From an uncultured Anaerolineales bacterium (lineage in GTDB: Bacteria; Chloroflexota; Anaerolineae; B4-G1), in the NCBI GenBank assembly GCA_964390305.1, contig CAYMHT010000002.1, positions 27,212-91,211 of the forward strand: a stretch of 64,000 bases of DNA. The letters are read 5' to 3'. The first letter of the stretch is position 1. Each line of letters opens with the position of its first letter. Positions 50,312 to 64,000 of the stretch are shown here, piece by piece. Below the pieces are notes generated by a model that ran no database searches, was not told where the DNA came from, and was given only the letters and a program-made list of their open reading frames with translations. A program made the position numbers and the translations under genes.

Positions 50312-50471
50312 TGGACTCTGCCTCCTGTCAATGCCGATGCTAACGGAGCCCTCAACCGCTGCCTCGCACCGTTCATCAACTTCAGGGGTCCGACCCGTCT
50401 CTTGAACGCGGCCTGAGCCCTGCACACCAGTAGGCGCGCATTCCACGCGCCTACTCACCTCGTCGGGCAAT

Positions 50472-50553
50472 GGGGAAGGCGGGATTCGAACCCGCACGGG
50501 TCTCCCCACGTGATCCTAAGTCACGCTCGTCTGCCCATTCCGACACTTCCCCG
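50472..50553 (-). tRNA. tRNA-Leu (anticodon UAG), type II
   Basis: Manual fold of reverse complement: acceptor GGGGAAG/CTTCCCC, D-stem TCG/CGA, anticodon stem CGTGA/TCACG loop CTTAGGA, long variable arm, T-loop TTCGAAT. Confidence 0.75.
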
Positions 50554-60714: not shown

Positions 60715-60917
60715 CCGACCCACCCTAGCTGGGCCGTGATCCTGATCTTGTCCTGAGAGCAGTACGTATAACGCCACGGGCGCGCCACATCATCCCAGGT
60801 GTGGGTCGCCCTTCCATAGCCGACGATTCCTCACTATGGCCGCCTCCACTTGACCTATCCCGCGCACCGTGTATAATATCTCCACTGTCTCGAACAACAA
60901 CTGCATACAAGGCCTGT

Positions 60918-61055
60918 TCTCCGACCCAGCCCCCTAACGAGAGCCAAGACGCGATCTATGGGAGCTGGGCGATAGGGCTTGGCTGGAAACGGCCAACGTC
61001 TCGTGGACGACGACGTCGTCCCGAGACCGCGCCTCCCGCGTTTGGAAAGGAGAAT
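60918..61055 (+). ncRNA. Moco-riboswitch-like element, copy 1 (contains an extra internal hairpin); its 3' end carries AAGGAG-ATG of a 28-codon uORF
   Basis: Conserved blocks UCUCCGACCCAG...CUGGGCG.UAGGG...GGCUGGAAACGGCC...GCCUCCCGCGUUUGGAAAGGAG; internal hairpin GUCUCGUGGACGACGACGUCGUCCCGAGAC. Confidence 0.55.
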
Positions 61056-61140
61056 GGACGACAGAAAGTCGACACACCGGCGTCCACTTCTTTCCAGTGG
61101 GCGCCGGTTTCTGTGTTCAGGTCTCACAAGAGAAGTCTGA

Positions 61141-61232
61141 TCTCCGACCCAGGCCCCTAAAGGCTGGTCCCAAGGGTCCTGGGCGTTAGGGTGAGGCTGG
61201 AAACGGCCCCGCCTCCCGCGTCTGGAAAGGGG
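61141..61232 (+). ncRNA. Moco/Tuco-riboswitch-like element, copy 2 (lacks the extra hairpin)
   Basis: Same conserved blocks as copy 1 (UCUCCGACCCAGG..., GGCUGGAAACGGCC, CGCCUCCCGCGUCUGGAAAGG) minus the 36-nt hairpin; begins right after the uORF stop. Confidence 0.55.
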
Positions 61233-61400
61233 ATCGATACACGTGGGTCTTCTTCTCACGTGACGTGCATCGCGGCCCTTCCGGCGCTTCTGGGTCGAAG
61301 GGAGGTGATGAACGTCGAGCCGAGGATGATGAACTGTCACGAAACTGCAAGGACACCGAATCACCGAGACCGTGACCGCATATCAAAGGAGAGAGACCCA

Positions 61401-62432
61401 ATGACTGCAAAGCACCTACTCTGGACGCTGACGGCCTTCATTTTCGTACTCGTCTCAGCAGCTGGCTGTACAGAGACCACGCCCGCACCCGCGCCGACAG
61501 CAGTGCCGGAATCATACACCGAATCAGAGCGGACCGAACTGGAGGGCAAACTGGTCATCTTCCACGCTGGCAGCCTTACGGTGCCGGTCGACGAACTGAC
61601 GGCAGCCTTCCAGGAGGTCCACCCTGACGCGAGGTTTGAGACCGAGGCCTCTGGCAGCAACGCAGCTGCCCGCAAGATTAGCGAGTTGGGCCGGGAAGCG
61701 GACCTGATGATGTCCGCCGACTACACCGTCATCTACGAGTTGCTGATTCCGGGCTTCGCGGACTGGAACGTGCGCTTCGCCCGGAACACGATGGTGATCG
61801 CGTACACTGATCAATCGCACTATGCCGGGGAGATCAACAGCGACAACTGGTACGAGATCCTCCTCCGGGACGGCGTCATCTACGGGCACTCCGAACCCGA
61901 CGCAGATCCTTGCGGCTATCGCACGCTGATGGTGTGGCAGCTGGCGGAGGCATACTACGACGAACCAGGACTATACGAAAGACTGGAGGCGAGTTGTCCG
62001 CCGGAGAACGTGCGCCCCAAGTCAGTGGAGCTGATCGCGCTGCTGGAGTCGGGCGATATGGATTACGCCTATGAATACCGCTCGGTCGCGGTGCAGCACG
62101 GGCTCAACTTCATCGAGCTCCCGGATGAGATCAACCTGAGCATGGTCGAGCACGCTGATTTCTACAGCCAGGCCAGTGTAGAGATCGCCGGCGCAGAACC
62201 GGGAGAGCAGATGACGATGGTAGGAAAGCCCATCGTCTACGGCGTGACCATCCCGAGCAACGCTCCCAGCCCCGATCTCGCCGAGGAATTTGTCAAGTTC
62301 CTCCTGGGCCCCGAAGGCCAGGCGATCATGGAAGACCAGGGCCAGCCACCCATCTTGCCACCGGTGTCCGGCGAGGTGGACAATCTGCCCGATGCGCTCA
62401 AGGGGATGGTTGAGTCCCCACCTCAGAGCTAG
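61401..62432 (+). CDS. molybdate/tungstate ABC transporter substrate-binding lipoprotein (ModA/WtpA family)
   Basis: Lipobox LVSAAGC; ModA/WtpA pattern (KLVIFHAGSL...EASGSNAAARKI...ADLMMSADYT); AAAGGAGAG RBS before ATG 61401. Confidence 0.8.
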   Translation: MTAKHLLWTLTAFIFVLVSAAGCTETTPAPAPTAVPESYTESERTELEGKLVIFHAGSLTVPVDELTAAFQEVHPDARFETEASGSNAAARKISELGREADLMMSADYTVIYELLIPGFADWNVRFARNTMVIAYTDQSHYAGEINSDNWYEILLRDGVIYGHSEPDADPCGYRTLMVWQLAEAYYDEPGLYERLEASCPPENVRPKSVELIALLESGDMDYAYEYRSVAVQHGLNFIELPDEINLSMVEHADFYSQASVEIAGAEPGEQMTMVGKPIVYGVTIPSNAPSPDLAEEFVKFLLGPEGQAIMEDQGQPPILPPVSGEVDNLPDALKGMVESPPQS

Positions 62433-62528: not shown

Positions 62529-63338
62529 ATGAAGAACCTGGTCGCCAACCGCATGCAGGCACTCTTCACCGCTCTCGGCGGTCTGCTGATCTTCTTCATC
62601 GCTTGGCCGCTGCTGCGGACAGTGACCGGCGCCCAGCCGGGCATCATCTGGGAAACCCTGCTGGAGGGCGACGTAAGGCGCTCAATCCTGCTGACTTTCT
62701 ACAGTTCGGCCCTGGCGACGGTGATTGCCTTCTTCGGCGGCGTGCCGCTGGCCTACCTGTTGGCCCGCGTCGACTTCCCGGGCAAGCGGCTGATTGAGGG
62801 CATCGTCGACGTGCCCATCGTGGTGCCACACTCAGCGGCCGGTATCGCGCTGCTGATGACCTTCGGGCGCCAGTCCTTTCTGGGGAGGGTGTTCGGGCTA
62901 ATCGGGGTGAGGTTCGTCTCGAGCACACCAGGCATCATCATCGCTATGCTGTTCGTCAGCCTGCCCTTCCTGGTCGACTCCGCCCGGGAGGGCTTCGAGG
63001 GCGTGGATCCACGCCTGGAGCGGGTGGCGCGTACGTTGGGAGCCTCGCCCTGGCAGGCGTTCTGGCGCGTGTCGTTCCCGTTGGCGTGGCGCGGCATCCT
63101 ATCGGGTATGATCCTCATGTGGGCGCGGGGTCTGAGCGAGTTCGGCGCCGTGGTCATCCTGGCATATCACCCGATGATCGCGCCGGTGCTGCTCTATGAG
63201 CGTTTCGAGTCCTTCGGGCTGACGTATGCCCGCCCAGTGGCGACGCTCATCATCTTGATCTGCTTGCTCACGTTCGTGGTGCTGCGGCTGACGGCACAGG
63301 AGGATGGAGGGCGGGGGAGCAGGGGGCAAGGAGAATGA
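62529..63338 (+). CDS. molybdate/tungstate ABC transporter permease (ModB/WtpB-like)
   Basis: BPD permease EAA-type loop (VDSAREGFEGVDPRLERVARTLGASPWQAFWRVSFPLA). Confidence 0.8.
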   Translation: MKNLVANRMQALFTALGGLLIFFIAWPLLRTVTGAQPGIIWETLLEGDVRRSILLTFYSSALATVIAFFGGVPLAYLLARVDFPGKRLIEGIVDVPIVVPHSAAGIALLMTFGRQSFLGRVFGLIGVRFVSSTPGIIIAMLFVSLPFLVDSAREGFEGVDPRLERVARTLGASPWQAFWRVSFPLAWRGILSGMILMWARGLSEFGAVVILAYHPMIAPVLLYERFESFGLTYARPVATLIILICLLTFVVLRLTAQEDGGRGSRGQGE

Positions 63339-64000
63339 AGAGGAGGGGCAAGATTGCGATCAGGGATCTGTGGGTGGATCTGAGGGAGTTTCACCTGCGG
63401 GAGGTGAATCTCGATATCGCCCCTGGGGAGTACTTCGTGATACTGGGCCCCACCGGGGCAGGAAAGACGGTGCTGCTGGAGACCATCGCTGGCCTGTTCC
63501 AACCGCACAAAGGGAGCGTGTGGATAGATGGACAGATGGTCACAGACCTCCCGCCGGAGCGTCGAGGCATCGGCTTCGTCTATCAGGATTACGCGCTGTT
63601 CCCACACCTCAGCGTGGCCGAGAACATTGCCTTCGGCCTGGATCTCAAGCAAGGCCGGCCGGCGGAATCGGCGCGGCGATTCTTTAGACGTCTCCTGGAT
63701 CCCCTCGGATGGGCGGCCGGCGGAGACGGGGACGGGGGGGGACACGGCAACATCGGACACCGGGTTGAGGAGGTCAGCCAGCTGCTGAACATCGACCACC
63801 TGCATCACCGGGAACCCGAGACGCTCAGTGGGGGCGAGCAGCAGCGAGTGGCACTGGCACGGGCTCTGATGGTCGAGCCGCGAGTGCTGCTGCTGGACGA
63901 GCCGCTCAGCGCGCTGGACCCGCAGACGCGCGAGGGGTTGCAGCGGGAGCTGGCCCACGTGCACGAGGAACTGCGGACGACCACGCTCCACGTGACGCAC
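63335..64000 (+). CDS. molybdate/tungstate ABC transporter ATP-binding protein (ModC/WtpC-like), 3'-partial at window end, with Gly/Asp-rich insertion
   Basis: Open frame (not in the six-frame track; no stop before window end); ATGA overlap with permease; Walker A GPTGAGKT, signature LSGGEQQRVALARAL, Walker B LLLDEP. Confidence 0.8.
   Translation, partial: MKRRGKIAIRDLWVDLREFHLREVNLDIAPGEYFVILGPTGAGKTVLLETIAGLFQPHKGSVWIDGQMVTDLPPERRGIGFVYQDYALFPHLSVAENIAFGLDLKQGRPAESARRFFRRLLDPLGWAAGGDGDGGGHGNIGHRVEEVSQLLNIDHLHHREPETLSGGEQQRVALARALMVEPRVLLLDEPLSALDPQTREGLQRELAHVHEELRTTTLHVTH

What the first reader, a model, noticed from the sequence alone, without database searches (positions are those of the whole stretch)
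60918..61400. Tandem Moco/Tuco-riboswitch-like elements (one with, one without an extra hairpin) separated by a uORF, upstream of a molybdate/tungstate ABC transporter
Sequence: two copies of a conserved RNA-like unit (60918-61055 and 61141-61232) share the blocks UCUCCGACCCAG, CUGGGCGnUAGGG, GGCUGGAAACGGCC and GCCUCCCGCGUyUGGAAAGG. Copy 1 has an extra 36-nt perfect hairpin (GUCUCGUGGACGACG/ACGUCGUCCCGAGAC). Copy 1 ends in AAGGAG-N3-ATG, which opens a 28-codon uORF (61054-61140) whose stop abuts copy 2. Copy 2 is followed by a ~170-nt leader containing a CACGTG-N11-CACGTG palindrome and a GGGAGGTGATG in-frame alternative start, then the ModA/WtpA-like gene. Established knowledge: the Moco RNA motif precedes molybdate transporter and Moco biosynthesis genes and ends in a conserved CCUCC...GGAAAGG-type block overlapping the RBS. 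Variants lacking the P3 stem were proposed to sense the tungsten cofactor (Tuco). Inference: this is a tandem Moco(+P3)/Tuco(-P3) sensor pair giving two-input control of one Mo/W transporter, with a riboswitch-controlled leader peptide between them. That arrangement would be unusual.
Basis: partly seen in the sequence, partly recalled or inferred. Interest (0 to 1): 0.82.

Follow-up and report, generated by a model that had tools for sequence, protein, structure and literature searches.

The report
Two tungsten-cofactor riboswitches in tandem
The leader of a tungstate-uptake operon in an uncultured Chloroflexota bacterium carries two real copies of the Moco/Tuco riboswitch, but both are the same (P3-less, tungsten-cofactor) type, an arrangement described in 2008, so this is a sound but ordinary new example.

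Summary
Both repeat units pass Rfam's threshold of 36 bits for RF01055: copy 2 scores 64.9 bits and copy 1 scores 39.0. They lie upstream of wtpABC, and WtpA passes its NCBIfam equivalog cut-off.

- Both copies lack P3. The extra hairpin of copy 1 (60998-61027) branches from the 3' side of P4, not from the P3 site. It is a covarying, clade-specific stem found in nine relatives.
- The pair is therefore homotypic (Tuco class), not a Moco+Tuco two-input sensor.
- The "uORF" segment is the expression platform of copy 1: an intrinsic terminator (61076-61108 plus a U-rich tail) and an antiterminator. In 20 homologues the terminator is 96% paired, with compensatory changes in 8 of 12 pairs.
- The uORF ATG is present in only 8 of 20 homologues and lies 1 nt after AAGGAG.
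- Downstream of copy 2, a conserved long-range helix pairs 61244-61255 with the wtpA ribosome-binding site (61388-61400). How aptamer 2 controls this helix is unresolved.

Such pairs occur in eight other Chloroflexota genomes examined here. Tandem and triple P3-less Moco RNAs were reported by Regulski et al. 2008. Verdict: new member of a known kind, modest interest.

The parts
60850..60877 (+). Sigma-70-type promoter, TTGACC-16-TATAAT (11 of 12). The equivalent TGTAGAAT -10 box is conserved upstream of copy 1 in relatives.
60907..61068 (+). Riboswitch copy 1: P3-less RF01055 aptamer (39.0 bits). P1 is about 60914-60922 paired with 61050-61058. P4 carries a GAAA tetraloop.
60998..61027 (+). 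Extra hairpin of copy 1 ('P4b'): 13 bp, one bulge, branching from the 3' side of P4. It is not at the P3 site.
   Evidence: The same position holds a 9-13 bp hairpin of different sequence in L001 and L081-L087.
61043..61096 (+). Antiterminator: the 3' strand of P1 (UGGAAAGGAG-aa-UGGAC, 61043-61059) pairs with GUCCACUUCUUUCCA (61082-61096).
   Evidence: (I7). It is the minimum-free-energy (MFE) fold of the nascent RNA 61040-61096, at -20.8 kcal/mol.
61076..61118 (+). Intrinsic terminator of copy 1: a 13-bp GC-rich stem (61076-61108) with a 7-nt loop, then UUCUGUGUUC. The U tract is weaker than in relatives.
61054..61140 (+). It is judged incidental because it overlaps the terminator/antiterminator.
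61130..61248 (+). Riboswitch copy 2: P3-less RF01055 aptamer (64.9 bits). P1 is GAUCUCC (61139-61145) paired with GGGGAUC (61229-61235).
61244..61255 (+). Anti-SD strand (UGGGUCUUCUUC) immediately 3' of copy 2. It lies inside a 6-codon ORF, GTG 61243 to TGA 61263.
61276..61305 (+). Inner leader hairpin, CCCUUCC (61276-61282) with GAAGGG(AGG) (61297-61305). It is followed by an ATG at 61308 that is in frame with wtpA.
61388..61403 (+). wtpA ribosome-binding site (RBS), GGAGAGAGACCCA, which pairs with the anti-SD strand, and the start codon ATG at 61401.
61401..62432 (+). wtpA, the tungstate ABC-transporter substrate-binding lipoprotein.
   Evidence: NF003196, 408 bits against a cut-off of 355
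62529..63338 (+). wtpB-like permease gene.
   Evidence: NF040839, 303 bits, below its cut-off of 340
63335..64000 (+). wtpC-like ATPase gene, cut by the end of the window.

Best explanation
This is a homotypic tandem of two P3-less (Tuco-class) Moco-family riboswitches in one leader. The leader is transcribed from the promoter at 60850-60877 and controls the tungstate transporter operon wtpABC.

Copy 1 is a transcriptional OFF switch. When ligand closes P1, the strand UGGAAAGGAG is held in the aptamer and the terminator 61076-61108 forms. Without ligand, that strand pairs with the 5' arm and loop of the terminator (the antiterminator), and RNA polymerase reads through.

Copy 2 acts on transcripts that escape termination, at the level of translation. 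The wtpA ribosome-binding site is held in a conserved long-range helix with an anti-SD strand placed directly after aptamer 2.

Both aptamers presumably bind the same pterin cofactor. Two switches in series would then give a steeper, two-level (transcription then translation) shut-off of tungstate uptake.

Shown here: aptamer identity, absence of P3, the terminator and its covariation, the sequestor helix and its covariation. Inferred: the ligand, the OFF logic, the coupling of aptamer 2 to the sequestor, and the sharper response.
For: - Both copies pass the RF01055 gathering score, and the model's P3 positions are deleted in both.
- WtpA passes its equivalog cut-off.
- Terminator: the scan finds a 13-bp stem. 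Across 20 homologous platforms, 96.1% of cells are paired, against 32-52% when the partners are slid. Eight of 12 pairs show compensatory changes, and 0 of 500 shuffles reach the observed score.
- Antiterminator: 86.6% of cells are paired, against 37-54% when slid. It is the MFE fold of the nascent RNA before the 3' arm of the terminator appears.
- Sequestor: RNAalifold recovers the anti-SD:RBS helix and the inner hairpin in 11 leaders. There, 87.4% of cells are paired against 47-58% when slid, with 9 compensatory pairs. The duplex energy is -14 to -27.5 kcal/mol in 11 of 11 leaders.
- In the closest relative (L001), the GGAG of copy 2 sits 9 nt before the wtpA ATG, which is direct SD occlusion.
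- The same tandem layout occurs in L001, L005, L006, L009, L011, L012 and L028.
- Published precedent: a triple array of P3-less RNAs in Syntrophomonas wolfei (S. wolfei) with terminators and a long final gap (PMC2408646), and Tuco riboswitches with terminator or RBS-sequestor platforms (PMC11725836).
Against: - Copy 1 scores only 39 bits because of the 35-nt insert.
- Its U tract (UUCUGUGUUC) is weaker than the UUUUU of relatives.
- The antiterminator shows no covariation, because the aptamer side is invariant.
- Equilibrium folding predicts that the wtpA RBS is sequestered whether or not the P1 3' strand of copy 2 is blocked. No thermodynamic switch is demonstrated for copy 2.
- No consistently placed antisequestor was found.
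- No ligand has ever been shown to bind this class in vitro. The Tuco assignment rests on the correlation between P3 absence and gene context.
Confidence: 0.75

Rival explanations
1. One reading: a heterotypic Moco(+P3)/Tuco(-P3) pair giving two-input control, with a riboswitch-controlled leader peptide between the two aptamers.
For: Copy 1 does carry an extra stem that copy 2 lacks. An ATG follows AAGGAG and opens a 28-codon ORF. A truly heterotypic P3+/P3- tandem exists in a relative, L010.
Against: The extra stem is inserted after the P4 hairpin, not between P2 and P4, and the P3 positions are deleted in both copies. Singles with this stem precede wtpA and a TupB-like permease. The ATG is absent in 12 of 20 homologues, including the closest one. 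The SD-to-ATG spacing is 1 nt. The segment is a covarying terminator.
Confidence: 0.04
2. Copy 2 controls wtpA indirectly. Its P1 3' strand serves as the SD for a tiny leader ORF (GTG 61243 to TGA 61263; a start-stop RUG-UGA in several relatives). That ORF lies on the anti-SD strand, so a ribosome loaded there in the absence of ligand melts the anti-SD:RBS helix and switches wtpA translation on.
For: All 11 leaders have an ATG or GTG 9-13 nt after the GGRG of copy 2. This matches the 9-nt spacing of the real wtpA ATG in L001. Five of the 11 are start-stop ORFs. Equilibrium folding gives a constitutively closed RBS, so an active opener is needed.
Against: The U and G of the start codon, and the UGA, are part of the conserved helix strand UGUGAG, which pairs with CUCACA. 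Only the purine before them is free of that constraint, and 8-9 purines out of 11 is not significant. The ORF lengths vary from 1 to 44 codons, and two read on past the stretch examined.
Confidence: 0.2
3. Only one of the two aptamers is still functional. The other is a decaying duplicate: either copy 1, which has a low score and a weak U tract, or copy 2, which is separated from the RBS by about 150 nt.
For: The lineage gains and loses copies. L007 keeps only a remnant of copy 2, L018 has lost it, and L001 has deleted the whole leader after copy 2. Copy 1 scores 39 bits. No thermodynamic switch is seen for copy 2.
Against: The core blocks of both copies are intact, and both are kept in eight other species-level genomes. 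The platform of copy 1 covaries. Copy 2 scores 64.9 bits, and the leader after it is conserved with covariation.
Confidence: 0.1

Closest known systems
Tandem and triple P3-less Moco RNA arrays of Syntrophomonas wolfei and Geobacter metallireducens (Regulski et al. 2008, PMC2408646)
   Same: Several complete P3-less aptamers lie in series in one leader before an operon that includes Mo/W transport. Intrinsic terminators follow the upstream copies, and a long gap separates the last copy from the first ORF.
   Different: This example has two copies rather than three, in Chloroflexota (Anaerolineae), before wtpABC alone. Copy 1 carries a side-stem on P4. The 'long gap' is shown here to hold a covarying long-range RBS sequestor.
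Tuco riboswitches of Eubacterium limosum (PMC11725836)
   Same: They are P3-less RF01055 aptamers before tungstate transport genes (tupABC). Their platforms are either terminators or RBS-sequestor hairpins.
   Different: Those are single aptamers. Their antisequestor overlaps an aptamer helix, and no such consistent element was found here.
E. coli moaA Moco riboswitch
   Same: It belongs to the same RNA family. The P1 3' strand contains the SD, giving translational OFF control. The relative L001 uses copy 2 in exactly this way.
   Different: The E. coli RNA has P3, is single, and is proposed to sense Moco. In the window the RBS is about 150 nt downstream of the aptamer.
Homotypic tandem riboswitches with separate expression platforms (for example the tandem TPP riboswitches of Welz and Breaker 2007, as cited in PMC2408646)
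   Same: Two complete switches for the same ligand act in series, which is predicted to give a more digital response.
   Different: Here the two platforms act at different levels, termination and then translation. The response curve is untested.

Membership tests
Rfam RF01055 (Moco/Tuco riboswitch aptamer) | Covariance-model score at or above the gathering threshold of 36 bits | tested here: met
   Copy 2 scores 64.9 bits and copy 1 scores 39.0 bits. Both match the full model, positions 1-135.
Rfam RF01055 (Moco/Tuco riboswitch aptamer) | P1 encloses a multi-stem junction, P4 is capped by a GAAA tetraloop, and the 3' block CCUCCC...GGAAAGG is conserved | tested here: met
   Both copies have GGCUGGAAACGGCC and GCCUCCCGCGUyUGGAAAGG. 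P1, P2 and P4 appear in the MFE fold of copy 1. For copy 2, the MFE fold shows P2 and P4, and P1 appears only in the centroid.
Rfam RF01055 (Moco/Tuco riboswitch aptamer) | Tetraloop receptor (CCUAAG...UAUGG) in the P2 bulge | tested here: inconclusive
   Copy 1 has CCUAAC...CUAUGG, which matches. Copy 2 has CCUAAA...CCAAGG, which deviates on the 3' half. No tertiary-structure test was possible.
Moco subclass (P3-containing) | A P3 stem between P2 and P4 | tested here: not met
   Model positions of about 66-80 are deleted in both copies. The extra hairpin of copy 1 is an insert after the P4 hairpin. Compare copy 1 of L010, which does align to P3.
Tuco subclass (P3-lacking) | P3 is absent and the aptamer is associated with tungsten-related genes | tested here: met
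   P3 is absent in both copies. The downstream gene is WtpA, above its equivalog cut-off.
Tuco subclass (P3-lacking) | Binding of the tungsten cofactor | not testable with these tools
   Ligand assignment in the literature is by correlation only (PMC2408646).
Tandem riboswitch with independent expression platforms | Each aptamer is followed by its own expression platform | tested here: inconclusive
   For copy 1, a covarying terminator and an antiterminator are present. For copy 2, a covarying RBS sequestor is present, but its coupling to the aptamer is not demonstrated.
Riboswitch-controlled upstream ORF / leader peptide | A conserved start codon at workable SD spacing and a conserved reading frame | tested here: not met
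   The ATG is present in 8 of 20 homologues and is ACG in the closest relative. The spacing from the SD is 1 nt.

The most novel reading that the evidence does not exclude
The second aptamer does not act on the wtpA ribosome-binding site directly. Instead it gates ribosome loading on a minimal (start-stop to 6-codon) ORF that lies on the anti-SD strand. Translation of this ORF opens a long-range sequestor helix about 150 nt away. This would be a riboswitch-controlled 'ribosome as helicase' relay, and it could also explain the unexplained 'long gap' after the last aptamer of the S. wolfei array.
Probability: 0.2. Interest if true: 0.55.

Novelty: new member of a known kind. Interest (0 to 1): 0.3.

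Why it matters
The finding extends tandem Tuco-class riboswitches to Chloroflexota (Anaerolineae), where they recur in wtpABC leaders. It corrects a tempting misreading: an extra stem is not P3. It also gives a concrete, covariation-supported anatomy for both expression platforms: a terminator/antiterminator, then a long-range RBS sequestor. Two by-products could be useful for riboswitch annotation and for experiments on Moco versus Tuco discrimination. One is a clade-specific side-stem on P4. The other is a truly heterotypic P3+/P3- tandem in a relative (L010). As a discovery in its own right, the finding is modest.

Tried and rejected
(1) Exact look-up of the WtpA protein to find the source contig found nothing on record.

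(2) uORF as a functional element: rejected, because the ATG is not conserved and lies 1 nt from the SD.

(3) Extra hairpin as P3: rejected on its position in the cmscan alignment.

(4) Dispersed or REP-type repeat: rejected, because the window holds only two copies.

(5) The roughly 160-nt segment after copy 2 as a mobile insertion, suggested by its absence in L001: rejected. Ten other relatives have a homologous leader of similar length (about 145-180 nt from the copy-2 GGRG to the wtpA ATG), so L001 is the deletion.

(6) A thermodynamic switch for copy 2, tested by blocking or freeing the P1 3' strand: the unpaired probability of the RBS did not change in 10 of 11 leaders.

(7) Search for a consistent antisequestor in the aptamer: the best partner is the P2 3' arm in most relatives but the 5' flank in the window, so there is no consistent site.

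(8) CACGTG-N11-CACGTG as an operator: it is not conserved and not clearly above chance.

(9) The in-frame ATG at 61308 as an alternative WtpA start: in relatives the equivalent ATG opens ORFs of 3-6 codons (18 in L028). The conserved feature is the 3' arm of the hairpin.

Full report
**Observation.** A repeat search recovers three collinear direct-repeat families between the units. The 3' block CCTCCCGNNNNTGGAAAGG occurs only at 61032 and 61212 in the 64-kb window, so this is not a dispersed repeat. Rfam cmscan places both units in RF01055 above the gathering score of 36. Copy 2 (61130-61248) scores 64.9 bits with E 2.5e-13. Copy 1 (60907-61068) scores 39.0 bits with E 9.9e-06. Three details need correcting. 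The extra hairpin is 30 nt with one bulge (60998-61027). The ATG at 61054 follows AAGGAG after 1 nt, not 3. The in-frame ATG of GGGAGGTGATG is at 61308.

**Context.** The downstream genes are wtpA (61401-62432; NF003196, 408 bits against a cut-off of 355), a wtpB-like permease (62529-63338) and a wtpC-like ATPase (63335 to the window end). The closest WtpA homologues come from uncultured Chloroflexota, mostly Anaerolineae. The best is 88% identical (L001). A strong sigma-70-type promoter, TTGACC-16-TATAAT, lies at 60850-60877. A matching TGTAGAAT box is conserved upstream of copy 1 in relatives.

**Are the two copies different classes?** No. In the cmscan alignments both copies delete the model's P3 positions. 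Both have the short P2-P4 junction GGGCG-AU/UU-AGGG. The extra hairpin of copy 1 is a 35-nt insert after the P4 GAAA hairpin, which turns P4 into a three-way branch. A metagenome scan for P3-less aptamers with an insert at exactly this place found seven more loci. Together with L001, all nine carry a 9-13 bp hairpin there. The sequences differ: GUCUCG.../...CGAGAC in the window, GGGCUAG.../...CUAGCCC in most others, and GGCCUGGU/ACCAGGCC or GGCUGGAG/CUCCAGCC in two. The stem is therefore a conserved, clade-specific decoration. Single riboswitches that carry it precede wtpA, a TupB/ModB-like permease and a small lipoprotein with an Oxidored_molyb domain. That is the same regulon as the plain P3-less form. 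By the published criterion, P3 present means Moco and P3 absent means Tuco (PMC2408646; PMC11725836). Both copies are therefore Tuco class, which fits a tungstate transporter.

**The segment between the copies.** The promoter/terminator scan finds a 13-bp GC-rich stem at 61076-61108 followed by UUCUGUGUUC. It is the MFE fold of 61040-61120. Twenty homologous platforms were aligned: the copy-1 units of the tandems (excluding the divergent L010), terminator-type singles, and the metagenomic loci (alignment A3). In that alignment the 12-bp terminator is 96.1% paired, against 32-52% when the partners are slid. Eight of the 12 pairs show compensatory changes, and 0 of 500 shuffles reach the observed score. 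Most relatives have a clean UUUUU tail. The 5' arm and loop of the terminator (GUCCACUUCUUUCCA) are complementary to the P1 3' strand of the aptamer (UGGAAAGGAG-aa-UGGAC). This helix is 86.6% paired across the 20 sequences, against 37-54% when slid. It shows no covariation because the aptamer side is invariant. It is the MFE fold of the nascent RNA up to 61096 (-20.8 kcal/mol). This is the classic anatomy of a transcriptional OFF switch.

**The uORF.** It lies on top of this platform. Its ATG is ACG in the closest relative. The ATG is present in only 8 of the 20 homologues, and it sits 1 nt from the SD-like sequence. I judge the uORF incidental.

**The segment after copy 2.** In L001 the GGAG of copy 2 is 9 nt from the wtpA ATG. 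That is direct SD occlusion, as in E. coli moaA. L001 is the exception. The window and ten relatives have a homologous leader between copy 2 and the wtpA start, about 145-180 nt from the copy-2 GGRG to the ATG. RNAalifold on these 11 leaders predicts two elements. The first is a long-range helix between a strand directly after the aptamer (window 61244-61255; GUGAGUCUUCCUC in most relatives) and the wtpA RBS up to the start codon (window 61388-61400; GAGGAAGACUCAC). The second is an inner hairpin, CCCCUUUCC with GGAAAGGGGG (window 61276-61282 with 61297-61305). Counting gives 87.4% of cells paired against 47-58% when slid, with 9 compensatory pairs. The anti-SD:RBS duplex is -14 to -27.5 kcal/mol in all 11 leaders. 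The RBS sequestor is therefore well supported.

**Coupling of the sequestor to aptamer 2.** This is not established. Blocking or freeing the P1 3' strand left the predicted RBS accessibility unchanged in 10 of 11 leaders. No consistently placed antisequestor was found. One attractive possibility is that the SD in P1 loads ribosomes on a tiny ORF over the anti-SD strand. In the window this ORF runs from GTG 61243 to TGA 61263. It is a start-stop RUG-UGA in five relatives, and the spacing is 9-13 nt, as in L001. However, most of that start/stop signal is explained by the helix sequence UGUGAG itself. I give this possibility about 0.2. The CACGTG pair is not conserved. The 'alternative start' at 61308 is the conserved 3' arm of the inner hairpin, and in relatives the equivalent ATG opens ORFs of only a few codons.

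**How common, and how new?** RF01055 was scanned over 80 wtpA loci. Tandem pairs directly upstream of wtpA occur in L001, L005, L006, L009, L010, L011, L012 and L028, all Chloroflexota. Another pair lies further upstream in a Dehalococcoidales genome (L060). Other relatives are single, and some show remnants of a lost copy 2 (L007, L018). Regulski et al. 2008 already reported tandem Moco RNAs in S. wolfei and G. metallireducens. They also reported a triple array of P3-less RNAs before an operon for molybdopterin synthesis and Mo/W transport. That array has terminators after the first two RNAs and a long gap after the third, and the authors proposed a more 'digital' response to Tuco. The window has the same design with two copies.

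**Verdict.** This is a genuine, well-formed homotypic tandem Tuco-class riboswitch controlling wtpABC. Copy 1 acts by termination. Copy 2 acts on a long-range RBS sequestor, and its coupling is unresolved. The two-input Moco/Tuco reading and the leader-peptide reading are not supported for this window. It is a new member of a known kind. Interest is about 0.3.

Noticed in passing
L010:1899-2316 (Chloroflexota MAG JAUWOY010000083): A truly heterotypic tandem lies upstream of wtpA. Copy 1 (68.1 bits) aligns to the P3 positions of RF01055, with a long P3 loop, CCCCCCG and ACGG variants, and its own terminator. Copy 2 (77.8 bits) is P3-less.
   Followed up: partly
L001:1990-2035: In the closest relative the whole leader after copy 2 is missing. 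The GGAAAGGAG of copy 2 is fused to the wtpA RBS and ATG. This looks like a deletion between the two similar AAAGGAG sequences, and it converts copy 2 into a direct SD-occluding switch.
   Followed up: partly
L007:2365-2500 and L018:2285-2500: These leaders show decayed tandems. L007 keeps only GUCUCCGA...GAAAGGAGG fragments of copy 2. L018 keeps the inner hairpin of the leader but has no second aptamer. The lineage therefore gains and loses copies.
   Followed up: no
L005, L006, L011, L012 (between the terminator and copy 2, and between the inner hairpin and the wtpA RBS): There is an extra conserved hairpin, GGACGCAGAU...AUCUGCGUCC, after the terminator. There are also runs of CGAAUGA-like heptamer repeats (several copies in L011 and L012) before the wtpA RBS. 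The window has neither.
   Followed up: no
window:61290-61300: CUGGGUCGAAG in the leader after copy 2 is complementary at 10 of 11 positions to the conserved CUCCGACCCAG at the 5' core of both aptamers (60919-60929 and 61142-61152). This may be an alternative pairing or may be chance. It was not seen in relatives.
   Followed up: partly
window:63677-63760 (within wtpC): The WtpC-like ATPase matches its family profiles in two stretches, residues 7-114 and about 140-221. Between them is an insert of about 25-30 residues rich in Gly, Asp and Arg (…RRFFRRLLDPLGWAAGGDGDGGGHGN…) inside the ABC domain.
   Followed up: no
L060:3608-3691: A c-di-GMP-II riboswitch (RF01786, 59 bits) lies just downstream of the wtpA match in a Dehalococcoidales genome. 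The same genome has a tandem P3-less Moco RNA pair about 2 kb upstream.
   Followed up: no
L015:160-299, L016:199-338, L043:330-466, L050:211-348, L062:343-477: In Dehalococcoidia, P3-containing (Moco-type) RF01055 hits of 135-140 nt lie about 2 kb upstream of wtpA, before other genes. There, wtpA appears to sit inside a longer riboswitch-headed operon.
   Followed up: no
window:17514-17599 (+) and 50471-50552 (-): Two tRNA-Leu genes, with anticodons GAG and TAG.
   Followed up: no
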